This document shows, piece after piece, positions 6,549 to 17,547 of a stretch of 64,000 bases of DNA. The notes beneath the pieces are model-generated. The model searched no databases. It saw only the letters and a program-made list of their open reading frames with translations, and had not been told where the DNA came from. The DNA is taken from the NCBI RefSeq assembly GCF_050920415.1, contig NZ_CP169309.1, one strand, 5' to 3'. This stretch comes from Escherichia coli (lineage in GTDB: Bacteria > Pseudomonadota > Gammaproteobacteria > Enterobacterales > Enterobacteriaceae). Each line of letters starts with the position of its first letter. Within the stretch, counting starts at the first letter, position 1. Made by a program: the position numbers and the translations under genes.

Positions 6549-6606
6549 ATGACCTTATGCGACAGAGTTATTAACTGCTGATTGCATTTTCTCCAGAAAT
6601 CAGTAA

Positions 6607-15375: not shown

Positions 15376-15771
<396 letters not shown>

Positions 15772-15908
15772 TCAAAATGTGTGATGGAAATCTCATAATT
15801 TTGTCACTTTTTGTCAACGAATCTTTTTTGTGAGAAATCGCAGGAAGAGGTGTTTTTTTACTTGAGGAATATCTCAAAGCGAGCCATATTTGATGAGATC
15901 GGTAGTGA

Positions 15909-16688
15909 CTAAATCGCTTCAGTTACACAACTAACAGAATAAAAAAACGGTAGCTCAAGGCTGTAATGCCAGTCAGTTAAGCAACTGACTGGCTCTTTTT
16001 TGGGGCTGTGGGGTATTTCCAGGGCCTCTCCTTTACCACTCTCGGGAAGGCCCTTTCCCTTCTTGTCGGTAATTTCACAAGTTGTCCCATACTTGCAAGA
16101 TCGCGCATCAGCTCCGGTATACGTCCCGGTGAAGCGCATGGCGTCCGTCATCGACGTCAGCAGATGGCTGGTCAGTTCCATCTGGCAGACCATTTTGACC
16201 TGCGGGTAGAGCGCCGGGGTCCCGGTATGTGTCTGGCGAGGGAAGGCTGCATCGTTCTCTGGTGTATCCGGTGTGCGCCAGAACACACCATCGATGGCCA
16301 GCAGGGTCAGGCCGCACCAGTGCGGATGCGGCGTGGCGTTATGCCAGAGCTGCGCTGTTTTCGTGAACACGCGGCGGACAGCCTCACTTCCCAGGCGCTG
16401 GCGGGCCTGAATAACGGCACTGGGGGCAACGAAGGGGCGATTGCCCGGCAGCATGATGTCCAGGCGATTCACAATCTGGTGAAGAGGTTCTTTACGCTCA
16501 AGCGCCATGCCAACAATACACCAGACCATCATTTCGAGGGGAAGACGGCGCTTGCGTAGCGTTACAGTACCTGATTCGGCAAGGCAACGAGAGATGAGTT
16601 CGGGGTCGAGGTAATCCCCCAGAGAAGTCAGTGGGTTACGCAGAGAATCGTAACGGGATACCAAATCAAGGGCCTGTCCAATGAGCAT
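15909..16688 (-). pseudogene. Truncated IS4-family transposase; N-terminal ~175 aa conserved, catalytic region lost or out of frame
   Basis: ORF MLIGQALDLVSRYDSLRNPLTSLGDYLDPELISRCLAESGTVTLRKRRLPLEMMVWCIVGMALERKEPLHQIVNRLDIMLPG... recognised as IS4 transposase N-terminus; ORF reads out through the element end. Confidence 0.75.
15952..15963. repeat. Target-site duplication, left copy
   Basis: agctcaaggctg immediately outside the IS end; identical copy at 16775-16786. Confidence 0.7.
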
Positions 16689-16773
16689 AAAAAAAATCCG
16701 GAAACGAGTGAGCGTTTCCGGATTCTTACACAGGCACTGGATCGGTCAACTGATCCTTAACTGATCGGCATTA
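15964..16773 (-). mobile_element. Internally deleted IS4-family insertion sequence (~810 bp versus ~1.4 kb full length)
   Basis: Imperfect terminal inverted repeats taatgccagtcagttaag (15964-15981) and taatgccgatcagttaag (reverse complement of 16756-16773); flanking 12-bp direct repeats; transposase fragment inside. Confidence 0.8.
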
Positions 16774-16774
16774 C

Positions 16775-16786
16775 AGCTCAAGGCTG
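16775..16786. repeat. Target-site duplication, right copy
   Basis: agctcaaggctg, identical to 15952-15963. Confidence 0.7.
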
Positions 16787-16809
16787 CCGTTTTGTGTTTC
16801 AGGTTTCTG

Positions 16810-17547
16810 TTATGTATTGCTGCTGTTTGCGGCGATGATTTTCGCTACTTTTTCAGCTTGCGCATTCATCTGCATCTGACGGTATGCATTTTCCATCAGC
16901 GGCAGCGCATCACGCGTAGCCTGGGTATCCGGATAGTCGCGCAACATGTCTTCTACGCGGTTAACGACAGCAACCCATGCACCACGTTCTGTATAGTACT
17001 CGGCAACGGAGTATTCATATTTCGCCAGACGATCTTTCAGGAATACCAGACGTTTGGTGGCATCGGTGGTGTACTGACTGTTCGGATAGCCGCGCACCAG
17101 TTTGGAAAAGTCACTAAACGCAGCTCGTGCATGTTGAGGATCGCGATCGCTACGGTCAACGCCAAAGAACCCTTGCAGCGCACTGTCATCCAGCGCCATA
17201 TTGGTCAGGCCACGCATGTACATGACATAATCGATATTCGGATGGGTCGGGTTAAGGCGAATAAAACGATCGATGGCAGCCTGTGCTAACGGCAAATCGG
17301 CGTTTTTATAGTAGGCGTAGATGAGATCCAGCTGCACCTGCTGCGAATACGGACCAAACGGATAGCGATTATCTAACGCTTCCAGTTGCGTTATTGCCTG
17401 TCTCCAGTTACCGTCCTGCAGCTTTTGTTGTGCAGTCGCGTAAATTTCATTTGGCGGATTATCAGGTACTTCTTCCTTTGACCCCGAGCAACCCGCCAAA
17501 AACAGGCTTAGTGTGGCGGCTGCCACCAGATATTTCATGCGCGTCAT
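16810..17547 (-). CDS. bamD: Outer membrane protein assembly factor BamD (YfiO), TPR lipoprotein
   Basis: 245-aa [54 protein letters not shown]... Confidence 0.95.

What the first reader, a model, noticed from the sequence alone, without database searches (positions are those of the whole stretch)
15952..16786. Internally deleted IS4-family element with 12-bp target duplication between bamD and raiA
This is the only non-core DNA in the window. The ends taatgccagtcagttaag (15964-15981) and taatgccgatcagttaag (reverse complement of 16756-16773) are imperfect inverted repeats that match IS4 termini as I recall them. They are flanked by identical direct repeats agctcaaggctg (15952-15963 and 16775-16786), consistent with the 11-13 bp duplication IS4 makes. 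The internal minus-strand ORF begins with a recognisable IS4 transposase N-terminus, but the element is ~810 bp rather than ~1.4 kb and the ORF reads out through the element end, so it is non-autonomous. It lies 24 bp downstream of the bamD stop and ~250 bp upstream of the raiA start, so it could affect bamD 3' end formation or raiA upstream regulation. The rest of the window is about the length expected for uninterrupted K-12 synteny, which suggests a strain-specific insertion.
Basis: partly seen in the sequence, partly recalled or inferred. Interest (0 to 1): 0.55.

Follow-up and report, generated by a model that had tools for sequence, protein, structure and literature searches.

The report
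Decayed IS4 copy in bamD terminator
A dead, internally deleted copy of the common E. coli jumping gene IS4 sits inside the transcription stop signal of bamD, a spot that IS4 has hit repeatedly across E. coli; it is an ordinary relic that public genome annotations already record.

Summary
Window 15964-16773 is an 810-bp derivative of IS4, 98.7-99.4% identical to the 1426-bp element and with both 18-bp terminal repeats intact.

- Two internal deletions lie between short direct repeats: 281 bp at GAAGCGC and 336 bp at CGTCAGCAGATGGC. They remove two of the three catalytic residues and the YREK motif, so the element cannot move itself.
- The target duplication is 13 bp (CAGCTCAAGGCTG), not 12. The window's left copy has one C>T change.
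- The target is the bamD intrinsic terminator (AAAAACGG|CAGCTCAAGGCTG|CCGTTTT), which the insertion splits.
- It is not strain-specific. Of 5426 complete E. coli genomes, 5007 have the empty site, 336 carry IS4 here in this orientation and 70 in the other.
- 22 genomes carry the 336-bp deletion and 18 carry both deletions. EPEC E2348/69 has a one-deletion version at the same site.
- At least four independent insertions hit this hairpin. Across 16 site/cut combinations from other genomes, IS4 favours A-run/hairpin/T-run terminators.
- I infer that IS4's own inward-facing terminator (16727-16689) now ends bamD transcripts. The raiA control region is untouched.

This is ordinary and already annotated in RefSeq as an IS4 transposase pseudogene.

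The parts
15941..15950 (-). raiA-side half of the split bamD terminator: A7 run (15941-15947) plus CGG (15948-15950). On the bamD sense strand this is the 3' stem arm and the U-tract.
   Evidence: The empty site in DSM 30083 reads AAAAACGGCAGCTCAAGGCTGCCGTTT and folds as an 11-bp stem followed by U7.
15951..15963 (.). Left copy of the 13-bp target duplication (TAGCTCAAGGCTG; C>T at 15951).
   Evidence: Other carriers have CAGCTCAAGGCTG on both sides.
15964..15981 (.). IS4 terminal inverted repeat at the transposase-distal end (IRR).
   Evidence: Identical to the K-12 IS4 end.
15968..16000 (+). Inward-facing terminator-like hairpin: 11-bp stem at 15968-15993, then TCTTTTTT.
   Evidence: Terminator scan; folds.
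15964..16137 (-). IS4 block 1, equal to IS4 nt 1-174. It encodes the C-terminal end of the transposase, now out of frame.
   Evidence: blastn 99.4%; the 43-aa ORF 15977-16108 equals the IS4 Tnp C-terminus.
16131..16137 (.). Junction of deletion A (281 bp, IS4 nt 175-455): microhomology GAAGCGC (11 of 12 over CCGG[T/G]GAAGCGC).
16138..16168 (-). IS4 block 2, equal to IS4 nt 456-486 (31 bp left between the two deletions).
16155..16168 (.). Junction of deletion B (336 bp, IS4 nt 487-822, in frame): 14-nt microhomology CGTCAGCAGATGGC.
16169..16773 (-). IS4 block 3, equal to IS4 nt 823-1426, with one extra base in the T-run.
   Evidence: blastn 98.7%.
15909..16688 (-). Remnant transposase ORF (259 aa as a mechanical ORF). 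Residues 1-173 are authentic IS4 Tnp (Nterm_IS4 domain plus the first catalytic D133), followed by about 10 residues, a frameshift, and read-out into the flank.
   Evidence: RefSeq annotates the identical copy as 'IS4 family transposase, frameshifted'.
16689..16727 (-). IS4-internal inward-facing terminator: 15-bp stem (16727-16692) running into a U8 tract that ends directly at the transposase ATG (16688). This is the proposed new bamD 3' end.
   Evidence: Terminator scan; folds.
16722..16749 (-). Promoter-like site TTGACC-16 nt-AAGAAT (with TG) that overlaps the 5' arm of the terminator hairpin. Putative transposase promoter.
   Evidence: RNA from the predicted start lacks the hairpin. This is an inference.
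16756..16773 (.). IS4 terminal inverted repeat at the transposase-proximal end (IRL).
16774..16786 (.). Right copy of the 13-bp target duplication (CAGCTCAAGGCTG).
16787..16793 (-). bamD-side half of the split terminator (CCG plus TTTT on the + strand, i.e. the 5' stem arm on the bamD sense strand).
16810..17547 (-). bamD coding sequence. Its terminator is the IS4 target.
15376..15717 (-). raiA coding sequence. A CRP-like site (15780-15795) and a TTGACA -35 hexamer lie within about 100 nt of the ATG.

Best explanation
A full-length IS4 transposed into the stem-loop of the bamD Rho-independent terminator and duplicated the 13 bp between its CGG and CCG stem bases. This is the type of target IS4 prefers: A-run, GC-rich hairpin, T-run. 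In one E. coli lineage the copy then decayed where it sat. Two deletions between short direct repeats (336 bp, in frame; 281 bp, frameshifting) removed D209, the catalytic E and the YREK motif, leaving an 810-bp shell with intact ends and no transposase. The shell is inherited vertically as a single-copy fossil. Shown: identity, boundaries, deletions, loss of catalytic residues, distribution, and the target preference. Inferred: bamD transcripts, having lost their own terminator, now stop at IS4's inward-facing terminator 47-85 nt inside the element. That would make the insertion nearly neutral for the essential bamD gene. Also inferred: raiA regulation is essentially unaffected, because its control region is intact.
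For: Identity and deletions. Catalytic residues lost. The target is a perfect terminator palindrome in empty-site genomes. Same relic, same site, same duplication in 18 genomes (both deletions) and 22 genomes (deletion B). All of the closest genomes over 24 kb are relic carriers, at 98.6-99.4% identity. In the four sister carriers checked, the relic is the only IS4 sequence in the genome. E2348/69 has a copy with deletion B only at this site. Full-length IS4 with the same site, orientation and duplication is in ST95-32. Hot spot: 336 genomes in this orientation, 70 in the opposite one, 5007 empty, and all four combinations of spacer allele (13 or 14 bp) and orientation occur. Target rule: 16 site/cut combinations give AAAA-SGS|11-14 bp|SCS-TTTT, and 12 of the 16 fold as strong hairpins. 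This agrees with PMC2266710, which reports 'spectacular' specificity in the target arms. Terminator replacement: the bamD-side remnant keeps only a 5-bp stem and no U-run, while the IS4 hairpin plus U8 lies downstream.
Against: No transcript data were available, so the bamD 3' end and the absence of an effect on raiA are predictions. The E2348/69 copy differs from the window copy at about 20 of 810 shared positions and has different terminal-repeat variants. It may therefore be an independent insertion with an independent deletion B, and not the direct ancestor. Deletion A also occurs on a different IS4 backbone at tdk-adhE. Shared junctions therefore do not prove shared descent. Only 64 kb of this genome is visible, so a full-length IS4 elsewhere in the same genome cannot be excluded.
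Confidence: 0.9

Rival explanations
1. The 810-bp form is a MITE-like non-autonomous element that was already deleted when it arrived here, moved in trans by a full-length IS4 transposase.
For: Both terminal repeats are canonical and a proper duplication is present. Deletion A is seen at a second locus, tdk-adhE.
Against: The deletion-B junction occurs once per genome and, in every carrier whose locus I inspected, between raiA and bamD. The tdk-adhE relics have a different backbone (AGTC at both ends, distinct SNPs) and lack deletion B. The carriers checked have no other IS4 copy. Full-length IS4 occupies the same site in related genomes.
Confidence: 0.05
2. It is a recent insertion private to this strain.
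For: The element is absent from K-12 and from 92% of complete genomes.
Against: The identical or near-identical relic, with the same flanks, is in 18 genomes from several continents and hosts. Those genomes differ from the window by 0.6-1.4% over 24 kb, and their relic copies differ by several SNPs and 1-2-nt indels. One duplication copy has already mutated.
Confidence: 0.03
3. The relic has been co-opted. Either the truncated N-terminal DNA-binding fragment acts as an IS4 repressor giving immunity, or the transposase promoter drives raiA.
For: The promoter-like site, the start codon and residues 1-173 (Nterm_IS4 domain) are intact in the window copy. The carriers checked have no active IS4. 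No strong terminator separates the element from raiA on the minus strand.
Against: The N-terminal ORF is broken after 24 residues in sister relic 2017-02-2CC, and early in the tdk-adhE relics. The window copy has non-synonymous changes relative to IS4. Absence of active IS4 is equally expected if IS4 simply died out in the lineage.
Confidence: 0.04

Closest known systems
IS4 of E. coli K-12 (insG; 1426 bp; IS4 family, IS4 subgroup)
   Same: The terminal repeats are identical. The retained 810 bp are 98.7-99.4% identical. The duplication falls within the 11-13 bp range I recall for IS4. The transposase N-terminus, start region and internal hairpins are the same.
   Different: It lacks IS4 nt 175-455 and 487-822, so D209, the catalytic E and YREK are gone and the frame is broken. 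The K-12 copy sits at a different, weakly palindromic site.
IS4 pseudogene E2348C_RS15405 between raiA and bamD in EPEC E2348/69, and the identical RefSeq-annotated relics (e.g. ACE00D_RS06370 in MFDS1022581)
   Same: Same locus, orientation and 13-bp duplication, and the same deletion-B junction. The MFDS1022581 copy is 100% identical to the window element.
   Different: The E2348/69 copy is 1089 bp, lacks deletion A, differs at about 20 of 810 shared positions, and has the two terminal-repeat variants swapped.
IS elements that target palindromic or structured DNA (REP-targeting IS such as IS1397 and IS621; ISRm22 of the IS4 family)
   Same: Each inserts at a fixed position inside an extragenic palindrome, and the same sites are hit repeatedly (PMC1525189).
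   Different: IS4's targets are individual Rho-independent terminators with A and T tracts, not a dispersed repeat family.
Protection of IS10 and IS50 from outside transcription (from my own knowledge of those elements)
   Same: A structure near the end forms only in RNA that enters from outside. RNA from the element's own promoter starts inside it and escapes.
   Different: For IS4 this is a prediction from sequence only. Here the structure is a full hairpin plus U8 terminator. A second inward-facing terminator lies at the other end.

Membership tests
IS4 (the element; IS4 family, IS4 subgroup) | 18-bp imperfect terminal inverted repeats beginning TAATGCC | tested here: met
   15964-15981 and 16756-16773 match each other at 16 of 18 positions, and each is identical to the corresponding K-12 IS4 end.
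IS4 (the element; IS4 family, IS4 subgroup) | Near-identity of the DNA to IS4 (ISfinder treats >95% nucleotide identity as the same element; recalled from memory) | tested here: met
   99.4%, 97.7% and 98.7% identity over the three retained blocks.
IS4 (the element; IS4 family, IS4 subgroup) | Target duplication of about one helical turn (10-13 bp for the subgroup, PMC2266710) | tested here: met
   13 bp, with 12 of 13 identical in the window and 13 of 13 in sister copies.
IS4 (the element; IS4 family, IS4 subgroup) | Single ORF encoding a DDE transposase with the YREK motif (an autonomous element) | tested here: not met
   Only residues 1-173 plus about 10 more remain in frame. D209, the catalytic E and YREK lie in the deleted segments. 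The fragment still passes NF033592 (122.8 bits against a cutoff of 115). It is therefore a remnant of IS4, not a functional member.
IS4 (the element; IS4 family, IS4 subgroup) | Insertion into an A-run/hairpin/T-run target (AAA-N20-TTT as I recall from Mayaux et al. 1984; conserved target arms per PMC2266710) | tested here: met
   The target is AAAAACGG|13 bp|CCGTTTT. The profile from 16 other site/cut combinations gives the same arms.
MITE (miniature inverted-repeat transposable element) | Multiple dispersed copies per genome, moved in trans | tested here: not met
   The deletion-B junction occurs in one place per genome in all 22 carriers, and every carrier locus inspected lies between raiA and bamD.
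MITE (miniature inverted-repeat transposable element) | Intact terminal repeats and target duplication, with no functional transposase | tested here: met
   This is a structural resemblance only.

The most novel reading that the evidence does not exclude
IS4 may be a 'terminator-swapping' element. It recognises intrinsic terminators by their A-tract and T-tract arms and usually cuts 3 bp in from each tract, so the duplication (11-14 bp) tends to follow the loop length instead of a fixed stagger. It also carries inward-facing terminators at both ends that replace the one it destroys. That would explain how it can sit repeatedly, in either orientation, behind essential genes such as bamD, eno and mukB (about 7.5% of complete E. 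coli genomes at bamD alone). The window's relic would then still be serving as the bamD terminator.
Probability: 0.4. Interest if true: 0.35.

Novelty: already known. Interest (0 to 1): 0.15.

Why it matters
For this window it matters little. The element is a dead IS4 copy that RefSeq already annotates as a pseudogene in identical form. It is useful as a lineage marker, because 18 of 5426 complete genomes share the double deletion.

The wider survey is mildly useful. It documents the bamD terminator as one of a small set of recurrent IS4 landing sites. It gives a data-based target profile for a little-studied transposase. It also suggests a testable reason why insertion behind essential genes is tolerated, namely IS4's own terminators.

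Anyone studying bamD or raiA expression in EPEC E2348/69 or related strains should know that the bamD 3' end differs from that in K-12.

Tried and rejected
- Rfam scans of the region (E-value mode) and of the whole window found no RNA family in the element or in the bamD-raiA spacer. The only hit nearby was the Phe leader.
- Searching the window for further AAACGG-N10-15-CCGTTT targets found none.
- The consensus promoter scan found only one promoter-like site, inside IS4, and none for raiA. The raiA promoter was therefore located only roughly, from a CRP-like site and TTGACA hexamers.
- A literature search pairing IS4 with raiA, bamD, yfiA or yfiO found nothing.
- The supplements of Lee et al. 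2016, which would list 8 experimental IS4 insertions in K-12, are not held.
- I could not retrieve the papers I recall on the IS4 target rule (Mayaux et al. 1984) or on the IS4 sequence (Klaer et al. 1981). Those points rest on memory plus my own survey.
- The idea of a domesticated truncated transposase was rejected, because the ORF is broken in sister copies.
- The MITE idea was rejected on copy number.
- The idea of a single ancient insertion behind all 406 occupied sites was rejected. Both orientations and both spacer alleles occur, and an occupied genome and an empty genome have identical flanks.
- 'Duplication length equals spacer length' was rejected as a strict rule. The eno terminator gives 13 or 14 bp and another site gives 12 or 13 bp.

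Full report
**Observation.** The 18-bp inverted repeats at 15964-15981 and 16756-16773 match at 16 of 18 positions. The exact 12-bp direct repeat AGCTCAAGGCTG lies at 15952-15963 and 16775-16786. A minus-strand ORF (15909..16688, 259 aa) runs out through the element end. bamD is 16810-17547 and raiA is 15376-15717, both on the minus strand (confirmed by the RefSeq annotation of identical loci).

**Identity.** The element is IS4. The ORF passes the NCBIfam IS4-transposase model NF033592 (122.8 bits against a cutoff of 115). The DNA matches full-length IS4 in complete E. coli genomes at about 99%, but in three pieces. I aligned it to a 1426-bp IS4 (L004).
- Window 15964-16137 equals IS4 nt 1-174.
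- Window 16138-16168 equals IS4 nt 456-486.
- Window 16169-16773 equals IS4 nt 823-1426, with one extra base in a T-run.

So there are two deletions.
- Deletion A removes 281 bp at a 7-nt repeat, GAAGCGC (11 of 12 over a longer stretch).
- Deletion B removes 336 bp at an exact 14-nt repeat, CGTCAGCAGATGGC.

Both look like slippage or recombination between short direct repeats. No other IS4 sequence lies in the window.

**Coding capacity.** The intact transposase is 442 aa, with Nterm_IS4 at residues 18-109 and DDE_Tnp_1 at 126-352. Its landmarks are D133, D209, the catalytic E in WEIE near residue 312, and YREIK at 317. Deletion B removes residues 174-286 in frame. Deletion A removes residues 296-390 and shifts the frame. 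Only the DNA-binding N-terminus and the first aspartate survive, so the element cannot transpose by itself.

The surviving N-terminal ORF is not conserved among sister copies. It stops after 24 authentic residues in 2017-02-2CC, and early in two tdk-adhE relics. I therefore see no sign that a truncated protein is maintained.

**Boundaries and target.** In other carriers the left flank reads acgg[CAGCTCAAGGCTG] and the right flank reads [CAGCTCAAGGCTG]ccg. The duplication is therefore 13 bp and IS4 ends at ...GGCATTA (16773). The window and the identical MFDS1022581 copy have a later C>T change at 15951.

The empty site in DSM 30083 is AATAAAAAAACGGCAGCTCAAGGCTGCCGTTTTGTG. On the bamD sense strand it folds into an 11-bp stem followed by U7, beginning about 19 nt after the bamD stop codon. 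This is a textbook intrinsic terminator. IS4 sits symmetrically inside it and has duplicated the loop and inner stem.

**Distribution.** I used junction-specific queries against 5426 complete E. coli genomes.
- 5007 genomes have the uninterrupted site.
- 336 have an IS4 end at this junction in the window's orientation, mostly annotated as intact IS4.
- 70 have IS4 in the opposite orientation.
- 22 genomes have the deletion-B junction, once each. Every carrier locus I inspected lies between raiA and bamD.
- 51 genomes have the deletion-A junction.
- 18 genomes carry both junctions about 30 nt apart, which is the window's form.
- The remaining deletion-A hits include 1145-bp relics at a second IS4 site, tdk-adhE, in all four that I fetched.

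E2348/69 has a copy with deletion B only (1089 bp) at raiA-bamD, and a copy with deletion A only at tdk-adhE. Over 24 kb the window's closest complete genomes are all relic carriers, at 98.6-99.4% identity. In the four carriers where it could be read off, the relic is the only IS4 sequence in the genome. The element is therefore a lineage-level fossil, neither strain-specific nor universal.

**Hot spot.** At this one hairpin I found IS4 in both orientations and in both target alleles.
- 13-bp spacer, same orientation: ST95-32, E2348/69 and the relics.
- 13-bp spacer, opposite orientation: A37 and IAI39.
- K-12-type 14-bp spacer with an extra G, same orientation: STEC17-190, NN5 and MRY15-117.
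- 14-bp spacer, opposite orientation: S43 and STEC388.

In each case the duplication is exactly the sequence between CGG and CCG. That requires at least four independent insertions. ST95-32 (occupied) and DSM 30083 (empty) have identical flanks, with 0 differences in 900 bp and 0 in 1200 bp, so occupancy does not follow the local haplotype.

**Target preference.** I pulled 20 contexts that encode exact IS4 transposases and added the loci already in hand. That gave 16 distinct site/cut combinations.
- The three bases just outside the duplication are G/C-rich. G occupies position -2 in 24 of 32 arms.
- The next four bases are A in 26-30 of 32 arms.
- The profile is therefore AAAA-SGS|11-14 bp|SCS-TTTT.
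- 12 of the 16 fold as strong terminator-type hairpins.

Other recurrent sites lie downstream of eno, downstream of mukB, and between tdk and adhE. This fits the statement in PMC2266710 that some IS4-subgroup elements show 'spectacular' specificity in the target arms. It also fits the AAA-N20-TTT rule that I recall from Mayaux et al. 1984, which I could not retrieve. The K-12 site fits AAA-N20-TTT but is barely palindromic.

Duplication length usually equals the spacer between the arms, but not always. The eno site gives 13 or 14 bp and another site gives 12 or 13 bp. The 14-bp duplications exceed the published 10-13 bp range.

**Likely consequences (inferred).** After the insertion, the bamD side keeps only a 5-bp stem and has no U-run. 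Inside IS4, 47-85 nt from the end, lies a 15-bp-stem hairpin running into U8 that abuts the transposase ATG (16727-16689). bamD transcripts should end there.

A promoter-like site (TTGACC-16 nt-AAGAAT, 16749-16722) overlaps the 5' arm of that hairpin. RNA from IS4's own promoter would therefore lack the hairpin, whereas RNA entering from outside would form it. The other end of IS4 carries a second inward-facing hairpin plus T-run (15968-16000, plus strand). That one would do the same job in the 70 opposite-orientation genomes. This would make insertion behind the essential bamD gene nearly neutral.

For raiA, all 246 nt between the old terminator and the ATG are unchanged. A CRP-like site with one mismatch (15780-15795) and TTGACA hexamers lie within about 100 nt of the ATG. 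Published work says raiA is controlled by cAMP-CRP, ppGpp, FNR and cold shock (PMC8778775). A sigma-S ChIP peak spans the whole spacer (PMC4447067).

On the minus strand no strong terminator separates the IS4 interior from raiA. Weak read-through from the transposase promoter is therefore possible but untested.

**History.** In-place decay of a full-length insertion is the simplest account, with three caveats.
- The E2348/69 copy differs from the window copy at about 20 of 810 shared positions and has swapped terminal-repeat variants.
- Deletion A occurs on a different backbone at tdk-adhE.
- Identical junctions may therefore reflect recurrent deletion at the same repeats, or gene conversion, and not common descent.

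**Context and novelty.** The window is collinear with K-12 W3110 (2,759,056 to 2,695,777) at 96-97.6% identity. The only other structural difference found at this resolution is about 112 bp present in K-12 just after ffh.

The element is a known insertion sequence. RefSeq already annotates it as an IS4 pseudogene in identical form, and it sits in a type of target already described for IS4. I rate it already known and of low interest. The hot-spot survey and the terminator-replacement idea are modest by-products.

Noticed in passing
L005:1543-2631 (E2348/69 raiA-bamD relic); L006-L009 (tdk-adhE relics): The two IS4 terminal-repeat variants (AGTC and GATC at positions 8-11) are swapped between the ends in the E2348/69 raiA-bamD copy. 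Both ends are AGTC in the tdk-adhE relics. Possible causes are conversion between the repeats or an older IS4 subtype.
   Followed up: partly
L007 and L008 (RM14723 and 2015C-4136CT1, tdk-adhE relic flanks): The two duplication copies differ: CCCCAGAAGGGG and CCCCTTATGGGG. The loop looks reverse-complemented, as expected from a template switch within a quasi-palindrome.
   Followed up: no
L006-L009 compared with window 16131-16137: The same 281-bp deletion (junction GAAGCGC) occurs on two different IS4 backbones at two loci (tdk-adhE and raiA-bamD). It is either a recurrent microhomology deletion or was spread by gene conversion.
   Followed up: partly
L029 and L030 (GCA_052122925.1, about 1.88 and 1.90 Mb): Two full-length IS4 copies lack matching duplications and carry exchanged halves of two terminators. 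This indicates a roughly 22-kb inversion by recombination between inverted IS4 copies.
   Followed up: no
L032, L034, L036, L039 (eno terminator); L011, L019, L021, L022 (bamD terminator, K-12-type allele): IS4 duplications of 14 bp exceed the published 10-13 bp range. At the eno terminator, 13-bp and 14-bp duplications both occur.
   Followed up: partly
L001:1-2262 (MFDS1022581): In the strain whose relic is 100% identical to the window's, prophage-type genes (VgrG/Pvc8-family contractile-injection protein, ogr/Delta, Hok/Gef, Com, DNA methyltransferase) lie directly downstream of raiA. The window and other strains have pheL-pheA there.
   Followed up: no
window 6549-6562: K-12 has about 112 bp more than the window immediately after the ffh stop codon. 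This is the only other structural difference from K-12 that megablast found across the 64 kb.
   Followed up: no
window 16740-16773: The transposase-proximal end of IS4 carries three GATC (Dam) sites within its first 35 nt. This recalls the Dam control of IS10 and IS50, which I cite from memory.
   Followed up: no
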